A stretch of 64,000 nucleotides of DNA, taken from the NCBI GenBank assembly GCA_965205595.1, contig CBDBHI010000020.1, positions 82,056-146,055 of the forward strand, read 5' to 3'. The DNA comes from Bryobacterales bacterium (GTDB taxonomy: Bacteria > Acidobacteriota > Terriglobia > Bryobacterales > UBA6623). Positions 48,340 to 55,556 of the stretch are shown piece by piece. Position 1 is the first letter of the stretch. Each line of letters opens with the position of its first letter. The notes under the pieces were generated by a model, which worked only from the letters and a program-made list of their open reading frames with translations, did not search any database and was not told the origin of the DNA. The translations under genes and the position numbers were made by a program.

Positions 48340-48523
48340 CTAGCCCGCACTTCCCACCACGTGGCGAGCGAAAGCGCGTGAGAGGTGCGTCAATACGAGG
48401 CGGGCGACGGTCGGCGCGCGGAGGCGTACTTAACAGTCCGTCGAGCACGGCGATCTAGCGCAACGAAGTAATGGCGCACCGATCGCGTGCTTTCGCCGTC
48501 AGGTGGTGAGAAATGTGGGCTAA
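48340..48523. mobile_element. MITE-like repeat, about 184 bp
   Basis: ctagcccgcacttcccaccac ... gtggtgagaaatgtgggctaa; internal match to 55394-55556. Confidence 0.75.
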
Positions 48524-50917: not shown

Positions 50918-51066
50918 GGGGCTGTGAAAAAACCTCCCCTAACTCGAGAATCGGGCGTAGCAAGCTACGCCCCTACAAATAACTTGCGTGTTATCAGCGC
51001 TGTAGGGGTGCGACATGTCGCACCCTCGGGCGACCGCAGAGCTATTCGAGGTTTTTTCACAGCCCC
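50918..51066. mobile_element. 149-bp MITE with 19-bp perfect TIRs containing two GTAG-footed REP-like hairpins
   Basis: ggggctgtgaaaaaacctc ... gaggttttttcacagcccc; hairpins at 50953-50976 and 51002-51025; interrupts PLA|LVIGRLN of the RT. Confidence 0.85.
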
Positions 51067-51533
51067 TAACGCCAACGGCACATGCGATTGCGACACACTC
51101 GTCATCTTTCGCAGCCGTTCCCGCTCACGCCCGACCGATTTCGCCGACGGGCTCCTGTTCCAATACCCCCACTCCCTGGCTAGCAGGTCGCGGTCCCATC
51201 GAAACAGGTAGCCCAAAAACTCAAGGCTCGCTCCTGCTTCCCTCAGTTCCACCACGCGGGTCTTCTCCCGGTTCAGCTTCAATCCCATCCAGACTTCCAA
51301 CTTCTCTTCGATAAACGCTTCCAGCGCTACGTCCCGCCCCTTCATCATCACAACGAAGTCGGCGGCGTATCGCACCAGTTTCGCGCTCCCTCCCCGCGCC
51401 GGACTCGCCCGATGTCTGAGAAACACCTTGTCGAACCCGTGCAGATATGAGTTCGCCAACAGCGGAGTGATGACGCCGCGAACGCAAAAGGTAACTTTGT
51501 GTTTGATCGGGAATTGCGGTATCGATAATGCGC

Positions 51534-51572
51534 TTGAGATGTGTCATGTACAGTTGTATTCTTATGACATAT
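51534..51572 (+). promoter_or_regulatory. Putative sigma70 promoter overlapped by an inverted repeat
   Basis: TTGAGA (51534-39), 17 bp, TATTCT (51557-62); TGTCAT...ATGACA inverted repeat at 51542-47 and 51564-69; ATG at 51571. Confidence 0.6.
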
Positions 51573-51900
51573 GGGTCGTGCCGGCGACGCCCAAAAAGCC
51601 GAGCGTCTCAATCGCGCTCGCCGCTTGCTGCAACAGTTCGACCATCTGCCCGACGCCGTCGAAGAGATGGTGCGAGACTGCCGCATCTCTCCCCGCCAGG
51701 CATATCGTTACCTCGAACAAGCGCAGCGTCTGAAGCAGCCCCTTGCTGTTGGCGATGCCAAGGTCGCCTTTACGGTGAAGGTGTCGCGGAGTTTGGTCGA
51801 ACGCGTGCGTTCCCACGCCGCCGCTACCGGGACGTCTCTCAGCGAGGTCGTCTCGCGAGCTTTGCTTGCGCTGCTCGATCGGAGACGGGGGCGTGGCTGA
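51571..51900 (+). CDS. Small DNA-binding protein (HTH-like + ribbon-helix-helix-like)
   Basis: ISPRQAYRYLEQA (HTH-like) and FTVKVSRSLVERVRSHAAATGTSLSEVVSRAL (RHH-like). Confidence 0.75.
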   Translation: MGRAGDAQKAERLNRARRLLQQFDHLPDAVEEMVRDCRISPRQAYRYLEQAQRLKQPLAVGDAKVAFTVKVSRSLVERVRSHAAATGTSLSEVVSRALLALLDRRRGRG

Positions 51901-52171
51901 GCAGCAGGCCGGCCAGGAACTCGCGCTTCGATTCGAATATCGGTTTGATCGTTTACTGCCCGCTAAGCCGGCCCAGGTTTACCAGTTGCCGGCGCCCGAG
52001 CAGCGATGGCCAATCGGCCAATCGCATCCCCAGGAGAAGATCCATGAACAAAGCTGCCGCCATCTACGCTCGCGTCTCTTCGAATCGTCAGAAGGACAAT
52101 CACACGATCGCCTCTCAGACAGCCGCACTGAGGCAGTATGCCCAGACGAACGGGTACGCAGTGCCGGCTGA
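51893..52171 (+). CDS. Small hypothetical protein overlapping the recombinase start
   Basis: GTG start overlapping the upstream stop; LRFEYRFDRLLP..AQVYQL; overlaps the recombinase by 128 nt in another frame. Confidence 0.5.
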   Translation: MAEQQAGQELALRFEYRFDRLLPAKPAQVYQLPAPEQRWPIGQSHPQEKIHEQSCRHLRSRLFESSEGQSHDRLSDSRTEAVCPDERVRSAG

Positions 52172-53858
52172 GTGGGTGTTCGAGGACGAAGGCTACAGTG
52201 GAGCCAACTTGGCGCGACCCGGCTTGGAAGCCCTGCGCGATCTGGCGGCGGAAGGGCGGATTGAAGCGGCGCTGGCTTACTCGCCGGACCGGCTTAGTCG
52301 CAAATATGCGTATCAAGTCCTGTTAACCGAAGAACTCTCGCGCTGTGGGGTGGAGTTGATTTTCTTGAAGTCGGCGGCGGGGAGCACGCCTGAAGATCAG
52401 TTGCTGGTGCAGTTTCAAGGCATGATCGCCGAGTACGAGCGGGCGCGGATCGCTGAGCGCTCGCGGCGGGGCAAACGGCACAAGGCCCAGCAGGGAGTGG
52501 CGAACGGACTCTCGGGTGCGCCTTACGGGTATCGCTATGTGAAGAGGAGCGAGCGTTCAGAGGCTTACTATGAGGTGCTCGACGCGGAAGCGCGGGTGGT
52601 GCGAGAAGTGTTTGAGCTGTACAGCGAGCAACGCTTGAGCATCAACGCCATCGCTCGTCTACTGAACGAGCGGCAGATTCCCACGCGAACCGGGAAGACA
52701 CGCTGGGAGCGCTCGACGGTTTGGGGGATGCTGCGGAATCCGGCTTATCACGGCGTGGCTTGCTACGGCAAGACCCGGCTGCGGCCTCGTCAACGCATCA
52801 CTCGGCCGCTGCGTCTGCGCCAGGGAGCGCCGAGTCGAGACAGCGCCACTCAGCAGCGGCCGCGGCAAGAATGGATCGAGATTCGGGTACCGGCGCTGGT
52901 CGCCGAAGAGACCTTTGCGCTCGCTCAGGAGCAGTTAGAGAGCAACAAAAAGCACTCGCCACGGCGCACCGTCGAGCCGACGCTGCTGCAGGGGATGTTG
53001 GTGTGCCGGCAGTGTGGTTACGCTCTGTACCGAGTTTCGACACGGACATCGAAACGAAGGCTGTCCTATTACCGTTGCCTCGGCTCGGACGCCTATCGGC
53101 ACCTGCAGGGAGCGTTGTGCACCAACCGACCCATCCGGCAAGATTCGTTGGATGAGGTTGTCTGGAGGGCGATCATCGAGTTACTCGACGATCCGTCGCT
53201 GATCCGTTCGGAGATCGAGCGTCGCATGGAGGTCGCCCAGAACGCCGATCCACGGCGCAGACGAGAGGCCGACTTGCGACGGGAGCGGGTGCGCTTGGAG
53301 AACGGTGCCGAGCGGTTGGTGATCGCTTACCAAGAAGGACTGCTGACGCTGGCCGAGCTGCGCCAACGAATGCCTCCTCTGCGCAAGCAGCAGCAGGCGA
53401 TCGAATCTGAGTTACACTCCCTCGAGATGGCGGCTGAGGATCAGTCTAAATACCTAAGGCTGACGGAAACGCTGGGGGAGTTTCGCGCCAACTTGCAAGC
53501 GCGGGCTGACTCCCTCGATGTGAGAGAACGCCAGAAGATTCTCCGGTTACTCGTAAAGGAAGTCCTTGTCGACCGCGAGACGGTCACGATCCGGCATTCG
53601 ATTCCGATCCCTCCATCCGCTCCGCTTTCCGGCGGTTCGCCATCCCCAAACTCCGGCCCGGGGGACTCGATCGTCCCAAGTTACCTTTTTCGTTCGCGGA
53701 GTCTTCACTCCACCTTGCGGCGTTCCCTTCCTGCTGCGTTCTCCTCGGTCCTTCCCTTCTCCGCGCTCGCCCTCTTCCACCACCGGCGCTTCCAGCCACA
53801 GCCGTATCCGCTTCACGACGGATCGATCCGCGATCCGGTGCCGCACGCACGCCAGTAG
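52044..53858 (+). CDS. Large serine recombinase (resolvase + recombinase + Zn-ribbon + coiled coil)
   Basis: AAIYARVSS catalytic motif, [39 protein letters not shown]; SD caggag; the ORF reads through attR. Confidence 0.97.
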
Positions 53859-54422
53859 TTTCTCGTGAGGTATCGAGTCGAAATAGCCTTCTAAATCCGC
53901 GTCATATACCGCTTGATATCCAGCTTGAATATGTCCACGAATCTCCTCCAGCGCTTGCTGCGCCGAGCGGCCCGGCCGAAATCCGTACGAACAATCTTCA
54001 AAGTCTGCTTCAAAGATCGGCTCCAGGATCAACAATGCGGCCATTTGCACCACCCGGTCCCGTACGGTCGGAATGCCCAGCGGGCGCTTCTTCCCGTTCG
54101 CTTGCGGTATCCAGACACGGCGTACCGCTTGCGGTCGGTAGCTCTTGGTACGCAGTTCGTATCTGCAGATGCGATACGTGGAGTTCATCCACCAAGCGCC
54201 GCGCGCCGCCCTCTTGCGCTTCGATCGCTGTGATCGTTACTTGTCGATCGTTACGGAGCCGAGCCCGGGACCGCCCGCTTTCGCGCGCACCCGTCGCCAT
54301 GCCGCTTCCAACACATCGCGCCGATAGATCCGGTCGTACAAAGCGTAGAACCGAAACTCCGGCTGCTGCTTGGCCTTTTGGCCCAGCTTCTGTCTCAAAC
54401 GAGAGAGTTTCTCCGGCATCGC

Positions 54423-55194: not shown

Positions 55195-55337
55195 CGACTG
55201 TGAAGGGAGTGCGGTGGCGAAGGGTGAACTGGGAAAGTTGAGTCGGGCCCTGTTGAGGAATGATCAGCAGGTCCCAACTCGGCGTATTCCAGAAAGCTGC
55301 TTCGCCACCGCACTCCCTTACAGTCGCGCCTCCGATT
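55195..55337. repeat. REP-like inverted repeat pair (intron target); left arm continues at 50566-50576
   Basis: aatcggaggca|cgactgtgaagggagtgcggtggcgaag vs rc of 55300-55337: 1 mismatch, 1 gap over 39 nt. Confidence 0.85.
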
Positions 55338-55393
55338 ATCACGGGCGTGGTGCTGGGGCAAGCAGTCTATGCCATTCCTGAAAATGCTGTTGA

Positions 55394-55556
55394 CCGCATT
55401 TCTCACCACGTGGCAAGCGGCAGTGCGTGAGAGGTGCGTCAATACGAGGCGCGCGGAGGCGTACTTGACAGTCCGCCGAGCACTCGCGATCGAGCGCAAT
55501 GAAGTAGTGGCGCACCTGTCGCCTGCTTTCGCCGTCAGGTGGTGAAAATTGCGGGC
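55394..55556. mobile_element. MITE-like repeat, about 165 bp
   Basis: ccgcatttctcaccacgtgg ... tttcgccgtcaggtggtgaaaattgcggg. Confidence 0.75.

What the first reader, a model, noticed from the sequence alone, without database searches (positions are those of the whole stretch)
51534..52171. Two small accessory genes and a self-contained control region in the recombinase element
Seen: a TTGAGA-17-TATTCT promoter is overlapped by a TGTCAT/ATGACA inverted repeat and would start transcription almost at ATG 51571 (leaderless). ORF1 (109 aa) combines an HTH-like and an RHH-like segment. ORF2 (92 aa) is coupled to ORF1 and overlaps the recombinase start by 128 nt. Inference: ORF1 is an autorepressor binding the inverted repeat, and ORF1 or ORF2 is an unrecognised recombination directionality factor or translational control.
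Basis: partly seen in the sequence, partly recalled or inferred. Interest (0 to 1): 0.62.

Follow-up and report, generated by a model that had tools for sequence, protein, structure and literature searches.

The report
Recombinase element's repressor and hidden gene
The left 640 bases of a 2.2-kb serine-recombinase mobile element hold a conserved promoter with a palindromic operator, a two-domain DNA-binding protein that very probably represses it, and a real, unnamed small gene overlapping the recombinase gene; the same module recurs in many soil bacteria, but what the small gene does is still unknown.

Summary
The TTGAGA-17-TATTCT promoter, the inverted repeat bracketing the -10 box and the ATG 8 nt after the -10 box align without gaps in 53 distinct copies. 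The repeat arms co-vary. ORF1 is a confident three-helix HTH plus a CopG-type ribbon-helix-helix domain.

ORF2 is a real gene. Its frame is open in 65 of 65 loci. Its start sits 7 nt before the end of the ORF1 stop in 56 of 62 and switches between GTG and ATG. Its dN/dS is about 0.36. It carries a conserved 25-residue motif with no match in any family or structure library.

The 128-nt overlap with the recombinase gene carries no ORF2-specific constraint, and its length is what chance gives.

Best reading: a leaderless, ORF1-autorepressed operon ORF1-ORF2-recombinase. ORF2 is an accessory factor of unknown role; a recombination directionality factor is possible but untested. The window's own copy looks decayed, with two Leu-to-Pro changes in the ORF2 motif and changes at invariant recombinase residues.

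The parts
51468..51526 (+). Left end of the element. It holds the attP-derived arm (ACGCAAAAGGTAACTT) and, in the recombinase frame as read across the excised junction, a conserved tail NAKGNFVFDRELRYR ending at TAA 51524-51526, 7 nt before the -35 box.
   Evidence: Empty sites in intact intron copies. Arm and tail conserved in about 50 loci, with a codon-like variation pattern at F-(E/D)-R.
51534..51539 (+). -35 box TTGAGA (family consensus cTTGAc).
   Evidence: Conserved at -37..-32 from the ATG in 53 distinct copies.
51557..51562 (+). -10 box TATTCT (family consensus TATnnn), 17 nt after the -35 box and 8 nt before the ATG.
51539..51547 (.). Left arm of the operator dyad (ATGTGTCAT; core GWC).
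   Evidence: On average 5.3 of 7 positions are complementary to the right arm across 53 copies, against at most 2.9 for slid registers.
51564..51572 (.). Right arm of the operator dyad (ATGACATAT). It covers the predicted transcription start and the first bases of the ORF1 start codon.
51553..51558 (.). Dyad centre (GTTGTA). Its two central bases (51555-51556, TG) co-vary with ORF1 residue 66.
   Evidence: A with TG 19, S with CG 13, P/T with AA 14, of 54.
51571..51900 (+). ORF1, 109 aa: N-terminal three-helix HTH domain, a 12-residue linker and a C-terminal CopG-type ribbon-helix-helix. Putative autorepressor, translated from a leaderless or near-leaderless mRNA.
   Evidence: More than 1451 homologues, nearly all exactly 109 aa.
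51893..52171 (+). ORF2, 92 aa, GTG start overlapping the ORF1 stop (GTGGCTGA). The conserved domain is aa 1-45, with the motif hxLEYxFDRLLxxKLxQAYxLLVPD. The tail (aa 51-92) is the recombinase gene read in another frame.
52032..52036 (+). Shine-Dalgarno sequence AGGAG of the recombinase gene, inside the ORF2 coding sequence.
   Evidence: (c)AGGAG or GGAG lies 7-10 nt before the start in all loci.
52044..53858 (+). Large serine recombinase (Resolvase, Recombinase and Zn_ribbon_recom domains). The element ends at 53704, and the frame reads on into the flank.

Best explanation
Window 51534-52171 is the control and accessory module of a 2237-bp mobile element (51468-53704). The element's only other gene is a large serine recombinase, and this copy sits in the reverse-transcriptase gene of a group II intron.

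A sigma-70-type promoter starts transcription at or within 2 nt of the ORF1 ATG, so the mRNA is leaderless. It drives one operon, ORF1-ORF2-recombinase.

ORF1 dimerises through its C-terminal ribbon-helix-helix domain. The beta-ribbon probably reads the centre of a 28-bp dyad. The two N-terminal HTH domains read the outer GWCAT half-sites, which lie 11 bp to either side on the same face of the helix. The bound dimer covers the -10 box and the start site, so ORF1 represses its own operon and keeps recombinase expression low.

ORF2 is a real protein, translated by coupling to ORF1 through the RTGGCTGA overlap. Only its first ~45 residues are under selection: a short beta-strand followed by an amphipathic helix. 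Its tail is an unconstrained read-through into the recombinase gene. Its most likely role is a recombinase accessory factor that controls direction or activity.

My own odds: ORF2 is a functional protein, about 0.9. ORF1 is an autorepressor at this operator, about 0.75. The mRNA is leaderless, about 0.7. ORF2 acts on the recombinase (directionality-factor-like), about 0.35.

Shown by computation here: conservation, coding signature, folds, operator covariation. Inferred only: DNA binding, repression, the transcription start and any effect on recombination.
For: Promoter and operator. An ungapped alignment of 53 distinct upstream regions keeps TTGAnn at -37..-32, a 17-nt spacer, TATnnn at -14..-9 and the ATG exactly 8 nt later, with no Shine-Dalgarno sequence. 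Every recombinase gene does have one. The arms are complementary at 5.3 of 7 positions, against at most 2.9 in slid registers. The pair at -27/-4 flips together (A:T 21, T:A 16). Half-sites are found only at the promoter. The layout is kept in a relative whose recombinase is only 46% identical.

ORF1. RHH_1 scores above the gathering threshold. AlphaFold2 pLDDT is 87, with an HTH bundle plus RHH. Foldseek matches CopG, Arc, CdbA and StnY at probability 0.96-0.99 for the RHH part. A profile search finds PDB CopG-family chains. R42, Q43, R46 and Y47 of the recognition helix are invariant, as are T68 and K70 of the beta-strand. Residue 66 has the highest mutual information of any ORF1 column with the central operator bases (1.38 bits).

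ORF2. Its frame is open across the whole ORF1-recombinase gap in 65 of 65 distinct loci, while the other frames carry stops. A start codon lies at -7 from the end of the ORF1 stop in 56 of 62, GTG in the acidobacterial type and ATG in the proteobacterial type. Codon-position differences in the non-overlapping part are 0.40/0.35/0.63. Synonymous changes make up 40% of differing codons, against 8-9% in the other frames. dN/dS is 0.36, compared with 0.27-0.32 for ORF1. M1, D19, R20, L21 and K25 are invariant. There are 507 cluster representatives at E<=0.001, and 127 of the best 150 match from residue 1-5. All credible whole-genome six-frame hits lie next to ORF1 and the recombinase.
Against: There is no experimental evidence.

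The loci are related. The operator and residue-66 covariation rest on about three clades and few independent changes.

ORF2 gives no confident fold (pLDDT 54, with a shallow alignment). It has no hit in Pfam, NCBIfam, PHROGs or PDB, so its role is inferred from context only.

From my own knowledge, the large-serine-recombinase transposons Tn4451 (TnpX) and Tn5397 (TndX) excise and insert without a separate directionality factor. An accessory factor is therefore not required by precedent.

Tight coupling of ORF2 to ORF1, while the recombinase has its own ribosome-binding site, would fit an ORF1 partner at least as well as a recombinase partner.

ORF2-recombinase and ORF1-ORF2 fusions in the databases are singletons, so they give no domain-fusion support.
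Confidence: 0.6

Rival explanations
1. ORF2 works with ORF1, not with the recombinase. It would be a co-repressor or an anti-repressor that binds the ORF1 dimer and tunes operator occupancy. The pair would then form a two-component switch for the operon.
For: ORF2 is translationally coupled to ORF1 by an overlapping stop and start in 56 of 62 loci. In the proteobacterial type it has no Shine-Dalgarno sequence of its own. This gives fixed stoichiometry with ORF1, whereas the recombinase initiates independently. ORF2's conserved part is a strand plus one helix that seems not to fold alone, as expected of a peptide that folds on a partner.
Against: A profile-profile comparison of ORF2 with ORF1 shows no relationship (probability 1.2%). 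No partner could be tested. Overlapping genes are common in compact mobile elements whatever their function.
Confidence: 0.2
2. ORF1 itself is the directionality or architectural factor as well as the repressor, and ORF2 is secondary. ORF1 would also bind near the att sites or bind the recombinase.
For: ORF1 has two separate DNA-binding domains. From my own knowledge, several excisionases double as transcriptional regulators.
Against: Copies of each element's own operator half-sites were found only at the promoter, with none clustered near either end in 55 elements. The att arms carry a different conserved sequence.
Confidence: 0.12
3. ORF1-ORF2 is a toxin-antitoxin-like addiction pair that stabilises the element. 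ORF1 would be the RHH antitoxin and autorepressor, and ORF2 the toxin.
For: The operon layout resembles type II toxin-antitoxin systems: a palindromic operator over the -10 box, an RHH protein encoded first, and a second gene overlapping its stop.
Against: Only about 45 residues of ORF2 are constrained, and they show no confident fold. No toxin or defence family matches in Pfam, NCBIfam or PHROGs. In ORF1 the RHH domain is C-terminal, with no extra toxin-binding segment after it. ORF2 was never seen apart from the recombinase.
Confidence: 0.05
4. ORF2's product is irrelevant. Only the act of translating through the recombinase ribosome-binding site matters, as translational interference or coupling. 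Alternatively, a +1 frameshift makes an ORF2-recombinase fusion.
For: ORF2 ribosomes must cross the recombinase Shine-Dalgarno sequence and ATG, and they stop 70-196 nt inside that gene in every locus. Frame-shifted ORF2-recombinase fusion proteins exist in the databases.
Against: The N-terminal 45 residues are under purifying selection, with invariant residues. The overlap length fits the background stop density of that frame (first stop at a median 143 nt, mean spacing 115 nt, per-locus P about 0.35). There is no conserved slippery site or RNA structure. The fusions are clusters of 1-2 members joined at different points.
Confidence: 0.05

Closest known systems
CopG / Arc / Mnt-type ribbon-helix-helix autorepressors (Pfam RHH_1)
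   Same: The C-terminal 40 residues match RHH_1 above threshold and superpose on CopG, Arc, CdbA and StnY. A dyad operator overlaps the repressor's own promoter.
   Different: ORF1 carries an additional N-terminal three-helix HTH domain. The operator half-sites are 22 bp apart centre to centre, rather than the compact 13-21-bp operators of CopG and Arc. Binding is not shown.
MatP (helical bundle plus RHH, binds the palindromic matS site)
   Same: Same order of parts: a helical DNA-binding bundle followed by an RHH dimerisation and DNA-binding domain. MatP is the top whole-chain Foldseek hit (7nyw_I).
   Different: The match is weak (E 0.41, TM 0.33). There is no C-terminal coiled coil, the role is unrelated, and membership is not claimed.
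Small recombination directionality factors of large serine recombinases (TP901-1 Orf7, SPbeta SprB, phiRv1 Xis, A118 Gp44; named from my own knowledge)
   Same: ORF2 is a small protein encoded next to the recombinase in the same element, with no enzymatic domain.
   Different: No sequence or fold similarity was found. ORF2 overlaps the recombinase gene and is coupled to a repressor gene. No effect on recombination has been tested.
Tn4451 / Tn5397 (TnpX, TndX): transposons moved by a large serine recombinase through a circular form
   Same: A large serine recombinase acts as the sole recombination enzyme of a multi-copy element that moves between sites.
   Different: Those elements are larger, carry cargo genes and need no accessory protein (my own knowledge). 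This one is 2.2 kb, carries no cargo and always carries ORF1 and ORF2.
IS1 / IS3-type insertion sequences with a small upstream regulator gene (InsA / OrfA) overlapping the transposase frame
   Same: A compact element in which a small DNA-binding protein encoded upstream represses the element's own promoter, and successive genes lie in different overlapping frames.
   Different: The enzyme is a serine recombinase, not a DDE transposase. No programmed frameshift signal is present. The repressor site is not at the element ends.

Membership tests
Ribbon-helix-helix (CopG/Arc/MetJ) superfamily - ORF1 C-terminal domain | Sequence match to the family profile above the curated threshold | tested here: met
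   PF01402 RHH_1, aa 67-104, 25.6 bits against a gathering score of 20.5. Profile hits to PDB CopG-family chains: 9kkd E 1.2e-4, 2cpg E 0.024.
Ribbon-helix-helix (CopG/Arc/MetJ) superfamily - ORF1 C-terminal domain | Beta-strand, helix, helix fold | tested here: met
   The AlphaFold2 model has helices 73-86 and 90-105 after an extended segment 64-71, with pLDDT 90-95 there. Foldseek gives local TM 0.7-0.86 and probability 0.96-0.99 to CopG, Arc, CdbA and StnY. The strand is not assigned as a strand in the monomer, as expected for a strand that pairs only in the dimer.
Ribbon-helix-helix (CopG/Arc/MetJ) superfamily - ORF1 C-terminal domain | Dimer whose paired beta-strands read bases in the major groove | not testable with these tools
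   Only indirect evidence: the outward-facing strand residues K64, T68 and K70 are conserved, and residue 66 co-varies with the central operator bases.
Transcriptional autorepressor | Its binding site overlaps its own promoter | tested here: inconclusive
   A conserved, co-varying dyad brackets the -10 box and start site in 53 copies. Binding and repression were not measured.
Leaderless gene | Transcript 5' end at or within a few nt of the start codon | not testable with these tools
   Inferred from the invariant 8-nt distance from the -10 box to the ATG, an ATG start in all copies aligned (selected for having ATG at that position) and the absence of a Shine-Dalgarno sequence.
Recombination directionality factors of large serine recombinases - ORF2 | Encoded in the same element as the recombinase | tested here: met
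   ORF2 lies between ORF1 and the recombinase in all 65 loci and in every credible whole-genome hit.
Recombination directionality factors of large serine recombinases - ORF2 | Similarity to a described directionality-factor family | tested here: not met
   No hit in Pfam, NCBIfam, PHROGs or PDB, with single sequences or with profiles. From my own knowledge, known factors are themselves unrelated to one another, so this does not exclude the function.
Recombination directionality factors of large serine recombinases - ORF2 | Binds the recombinase, stimulates attL x attR and inhibits attP x attB | not testable with these tools
   No multi-chain structure prediction and no assay were available.
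Type II toxin-antitoxin pair - ORF1/ORF2 | The second gene encodes a folded toxin of a known family | tested here: not met
   Only about 45 residues are constrained, pLDDT is 54 and there are no family hits. PADLOC was not searched.
Protein-coding gene - ORF2 | Open frame, conserved start codon and purifying selection on amino acids | tested here: met

The most novel reading that the evidence does not exclude
ORF2 founds a new family of about 45-residue partners of large serine recombinases. The family would have gone unnamed because the gene overlaps the recombinase gene by more than gene callers usually allow. It would set the direction of recombination, or gate it. With the ORF1 HTH-RHH autorepressor it would make this 2.2-kb unit a complete, self-regulating, insertion-sequence-like transposon built on a serine integrase. 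Hundreds of natural recombinase/partner/att-site sets would already be present in soil metagenomes.
Probability: 0.3. Interest if true: 0.75.

Novelty: new variant of a known kind. Interest (0 to 1): 0.55.

Why it matters
Large serine recombinases are used as genome-engineering tools. Their usefulness depends on knowing the small partner proteins that reverse or gate the reaction. Few such partners are known, and they cannot be found by similarity to one another.

This finding supplies a very compact natural system of 2.2 kb with three genes and defined att sites. It occurs as many diverged copies in Acidobacteriota, Proteobacteria, Gemmatimonadota, Nitrospirota and other phyla. Its two accessory genes are always present, and one of them belongs to no named family.

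The comparative data already give testable details. These include an operator with co-varying half-sites, a candidate base-reading residue in the repressor, invariant ORF2 residues, and a natural ORF2 double Leu-to-Pro variant in the window copy.

If ORF2 proves to be only a regulator of ORF1, the result is an ordinary, if neat, autoregulated mobile-element operon.

Tried and rejected
1. A conserved RNA structure around the recombinase start that ORF2 translation could open. RNAalifold on 13 diverse loci predicted no pairs, and Rfam found nothing in 51400-53800.

2. Selection for the long ORF2-recombinase overlap. The first stop in that frame falls at a median of 143 nt, against a background spacing of 115 nt. 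The variation pattern there is that of the recombinase frame alone (0.53/0.22/0.18).

3. Domain-fusion evidence. ORF2-recombinase and ORF1-ORF2 fusions exist among predicted proteins. They are clusters of 1-2 members with different junctions, consistent with sporadic frameshifts or assembly errors.

4. Extra ORF1 sites near the element ends: none.

5. ORF2 as a truncated relative of ORF1's RHH domain: hhalign probability 1.2%.

6. Metagenome contigs of about the element's length (2237 and 2243 bp) as evidence of excised circles. They are bounded at the element ends and their ends do not overlap, so they are repeat-collapsed contigs.

No reads could be laid to map the transcript start or to look for circle junctions.

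9. The word-indexed protein search found only 4 called ORF2 proteins. I first read this as 'never annotated'. The exhaustive HMM search found 507 cluster representatives. The correct statement is that ORF2 is called sporadically, mostly on short contigs, and is in no named family.

10. One whole-genome ORF2 hit (L087, E 6.6e-4) lies inside a peroxidase gene in another frame and is spurious.

11. Five literature searches found no description of this element or of its accessory genes.
Full report
CONTEXT. The finding lies at the left end of a 2237-bp element, window 51468-53704. The element interrupts the reverse-transcriptase gene of a group II intron on the minus strand. The N-terminal part of that gene is at 53547-54188 and the C-terminal part at 50965-51459. 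Intact intron copies elsewhere in the genome give the empty site ...CAACAGCGGAGAAATCACTCCACC.... The element ends are imperfect inverted repeats (AAGTTACCTTTTTCGT... and ...ACGCAAAAGGTAACTT), as expected of the two halves of a serine-integrase attP. A second identical copy lies on the same contig inside a 99.8%-identical 4.7-kb copy of the intron. The host is a close relative of a Bryobacterales (Acidobacteriota) genome, with acetyl-CoA synthetase 98% identical.

The hexamers TTGAGA (51534-51539) and TATTCT (51557-51562), 17 nt apart, are the only promoter-like site in 51300-54000 on either strand. TGTCAT (51542-51547) and ATGACA (51564-51569) form an inverted repeat that extends to 9 nt at 89% complementarity. 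The pattern is unique in the window, with 0.01 expected. The ORF1 ATG at 51571 is 8 nt after the -10 box. ORF1 is 109 aa. ORF2 starts at GTG 51893, inside the last codons of ORF1 (GTGGCTGA), and ends at 52171, 128 nt into the recombinase gene, whose ATG is at 52044.

THE MODULE IS WIDESPREAD AND SYNTENIC. ORF1 has more than 1451 homologues, nearly all exactly 109 aa, and many sit on contigs of about the element's length. A scan of species-representative genomes found more than 598 recombinase matches, often several per genome. They come from Acidobacteriota, Alpha-, Gamma- and Deltaproteobacteria, Gemmatimonadota, Nitrospirota, Planctomycetota and Binatia. In the 80 loci fetched, every locus with enough upstream sequence has ORF1, then ORF2, then the recombinase, in the same order and the same relative frames. 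A six-frame profile search for the ORF2 N-terminal domain in 301 genomes of the host phylum hit 5 genomes. All credible hits lie between an ORF1 and a recombinase, including one whose recombinase is only 46% identical. The one weak hit was spurious.

THE CONTROL REGION IS CONSERVED BASE FOR BASE IN ITS GEOMETRY. When 53 distinct upstream regions are anchored on the ORF1 ATG they align without gaps. They show cTTGAc at -37..-32, a 17-nt spacer, TATnnn at -14..-9, then 8 nt and the ATG. No copy has a Shine-Dalgarno sequence before ORF1, while every recombinase gene has (c)AGGAG or GGAG 7-10 nt before its start. With the usual 7-nt distance from the -10 box, transcription would start 0-2 nt before the ATG. 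The out-of-frame ATG inside the right repeat arm would not be in the transcript. This is inference, because no transcript data could be obtained.

The inverted repeat sits at fixed positions, -29..-23 and -8..-2. On average 5.3 of 7 positions are complementary, against at most 2.9 for any slid register. The pair at -27/-4 changes on both sides together (A:T in 21 copies, T:A in 16). Each element's own half-site sequence occurs nowhere else in the element beyond chance. The dyad brackets the -10 box and covers the start site, which is the classical position for a repressor.

ORF1 IS A TWO-DOMAIN DNA-BINDING PROTEIN. Pfam RHH_1 matches aa 67-104 above the curated threshold. AlphaFold2 with a 50-sequence alignment gives pLDDT 87. 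It predicts a three-helix bundle (6-22, 26-37, 41-53) whose last two helices form an HTH. A 12-residue linker, an extended segment and two helices (73-86, 90-105) follow. The C-terminal part superposes on CopG, Arc, CdbA and StnY with probability 0.96-0.99. A profile search also finds CopG-family chains in the PDB. The best whole-chain match is MatP, which has the same order of a helical bundle followed by an RHH, but the score is weak.

In the alignment the HTH recognition helix (R42, Q43, R46, Y47) is invariant, as are the outer operator bases G-28, C-26 and A-23. In the RHH strand K64-x-A66-x-T68-x-K70, residue 66 varies. It tracks the two bases at the exact centre of the dyad: A with TG in 19 copies, S with CG in 13, P or T with AA in 14, out of 54. 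This is the highest mutual information of any ORF1 column.

The evidence suggests a model. The RHH dimer's ribbon sits in the major groove at the dyad centre. The two HTH domains sit one helical turn away on either side. The covariation follows three clades, so it counts only a few independent events and is suggestive, not proof.

ORF2 IS A REAL GENE. Five lines of evidence agree.
- Its frame is open across the entire 122-161-nt gap between ORF1 and the recombinase in 65 of 65 distinct loci, while the other two frames usually carry stops.
- A start codon lies 7 nt before the end of the ORF1 stop in 56 of 62 loci. It is GTG in the acidobacterial type and ATG in the proteobacterial type, which costs ORF1 an Arg-to-His change. 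The GTG type usually has a G-rich Shine-Dalgarno-like run just upstream. The ATG type has none, so it would depend on coupling to ORF1.
- In the part that overlaps no other gene, pairwise differences by codon position are 0.40/0.35/0.63. Synonymous changes make up 40% of differing codons, against 8-9% in the other frames.
- dN/dS is about 0.36. The figure is 0.27-0.32 for ORF1 and 0.11-0.12 for the recombinase.
- The first ~45 residues carry a conserved motif, hxLEYxFDRLLxxKLxQAYxLLVPD. M1, D19, R20, L21 and K25 are invariant, and F18, L26, Y30 and L33 are kept in at least 90% of copies. The pattern is an alternating strand (12-18) followed by an amphipathic helix (25-34).

An exhaustive HMM search of 1.84 billion cluster representatives finds 507 proteins at E<=0.001. 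Of the best 150, 127 match from their residue 1-5, so independent gene calls choose the same start. Most are fragments from short contigs. No Pfam, NCBIfam, PHROG or PDB family matches. The structure model is not confident (pLDDT 54), which may reflect disorder without a partner or simply the shallow alignment.

THE OVERLAP WITH THE RECOMBINASE GENE IS NOT ITSELF A SELECTED FEATURE. In the overlapping part the variation pattern (0.53/0.22/0.18 in the ORF2 frame) is exactly that of the recombinase frame. The ORF2 stop wanders from +70 to +196. That length is what the stop density of this frame predicts. There is no conserved RNA structure or slippery site. ORF2 ribosomes must still pass over the recombinase ribosome-binding site, which could dampen initiation there, but nothing shows that this is selected. 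Fusion proteins that join the ORF2 domain to the recombinase exist in the databases. They are one- or two-member clusters with different junctions. Both frames are open in the overlap, so any 1-nt indel there would make such a fusion.

WHAT ORF2 DOES IS OPEN. The element must both integrate and excise to multiply, and it carries only three genes. That makes ORF1 or ORF2 a natural candidate for a directionality factor. ORF2 resembles known small factors in size and position only. Two points weigh against it. From my own knowledge, the Tn4451 and Tn5397 recombinases need no such factor. And ORF2's tight coupling to ORF1 would suit an ORF1 partner equally well. I put a recombinase-directed role at about 0.35, an ORF1-directed role at about 0.2, and other roles below that.

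I checked this in part. The stretch 51468-51526 encodes NAKGNFVFDRELRYR followed by a stop in that frame. The peptide is conserved in about 50 loci, with a codon-like variation pattern beyond the palindromic arm. The stop falls 14-68 nt before the ORF1 ATG. In the proteobacterial type this tail frame runs through the -35 box and the left operator arm. The promoter studied here therefore directly abuts, or overlaps, the end of the recombinase gene in the circular form. The circle would then be one wrap-around operon with almost no non-coding DNA.

THE WINDOW'S OWN COPY LOOKS DECAYED. It differs at 45 positions from the two copies in the sister genome (L003, L004). The promoter and operator (51514-51582) are identical. 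The only two differences in the ORF2-only stretch turn L26 and L33 into proline (51969 and 51990). The window copy is the only one of 54 sequences with proline at either position. The recombinase carries Q135R (Q in 54 of 54 others), V155G (V in 52 of 54), E271Q (E in 49 of 54) and L549F (L in 53 of 54). The attL and attR cores also do not match each other or the empty site. The element was duplicated only as a passenger of the intron. Together these points suggest a copy that is no longer mobile. Experiments should use an intact relative.

NOVELTY AND LIMITS. An RHH autorepressor on a dyad operator is a familiar device. The added HTH domain, the leaderless layout and the conserved, family-less ORF2 are the new parts. 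Five literature searches found no description of them or of the element. All functional statements are inferences from sequence comparison. The loci are related, so counts overstate the number of independent observations. Multi-chain structure prediction and sequencing reads were not available.

Noticed in passing
window 51969, 51990 and 52447, 52507, 52854, 53690: The window copy has proline at two ORF2 positions where at least 90% of relatives have leucine (L26P, L33P). It also has changes at recombinase residues that are invariant or nearly so in 54 relatives (Q135R, V155G, E271Q, L549F). All three reading frames are intact, but the copy is probably inactive.
   Followed up: yes
L003-L082 flanks; window 51455-51475 and 53695-53715: Most relatives are inserted at one spot of reverse-transcriptase genes, between the codons for PQGG and (V/I)SPLLAN. 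They occur in both orientations (20 sense, at least 8 antisense). The reconstructed attP is a near-perfect palindrome, TTCGnGGAGT-4 nt-ACTCCnCGAA.
   Followed up: partly
L006, L060, L071 and L055, L076: These loci have chimeric flanks. Both sides carry the PQGG half of the target in opposite orientations, or both carry the SPLLAN half. This is the signature of inversions between two oppositely oriented copies.
   Followed up: no
L033, L035-L039, L042, L043: A subfamily with the same three genes has different att cores (...TTCACACAGTCAACACGCC...). It is inserted in a different, non-RT target, so target specificity has shifted within the family.
   Followed up: no
window 51468-51475 versus 53697-53710: attL and attR of the window copy do not share the expected central dinucleotide (GGAGTGATGAC versus GGAGTCTTCAC). 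Neither matches the empty-site sequence GGAGAAATCAC of the other intron copies.
   Followed up: partly
window 51468-51526 and the left ends of about 50 loci: In the recombinase frame read across the excised junction, the left end encodes a conserved tail NAK(G/D)NFxF(E/D)RxhxYR. In proteobacterial copies this frame continues through the -35 box and left operator arm (...LDLRRKR, then a stop in the -10 region).
   Followed up: partly
window 48340-48522, 55195-55388, 55394-55556, 50918-51066: Several short repeat families of 150-200 bp occur at dozens of copies across the genome's contigs, at 80-99% identity.
   Followed up: no
P0239, P0255, P0178, P0132 (metagenome proteins): Sporadic in-frame fusions join the ORF2 N-terminal domain to an otherwise normal recombinase N-terminus (AIYARVSS...). 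Each is in a cluster of 1-2 members.
   Followed up: yes
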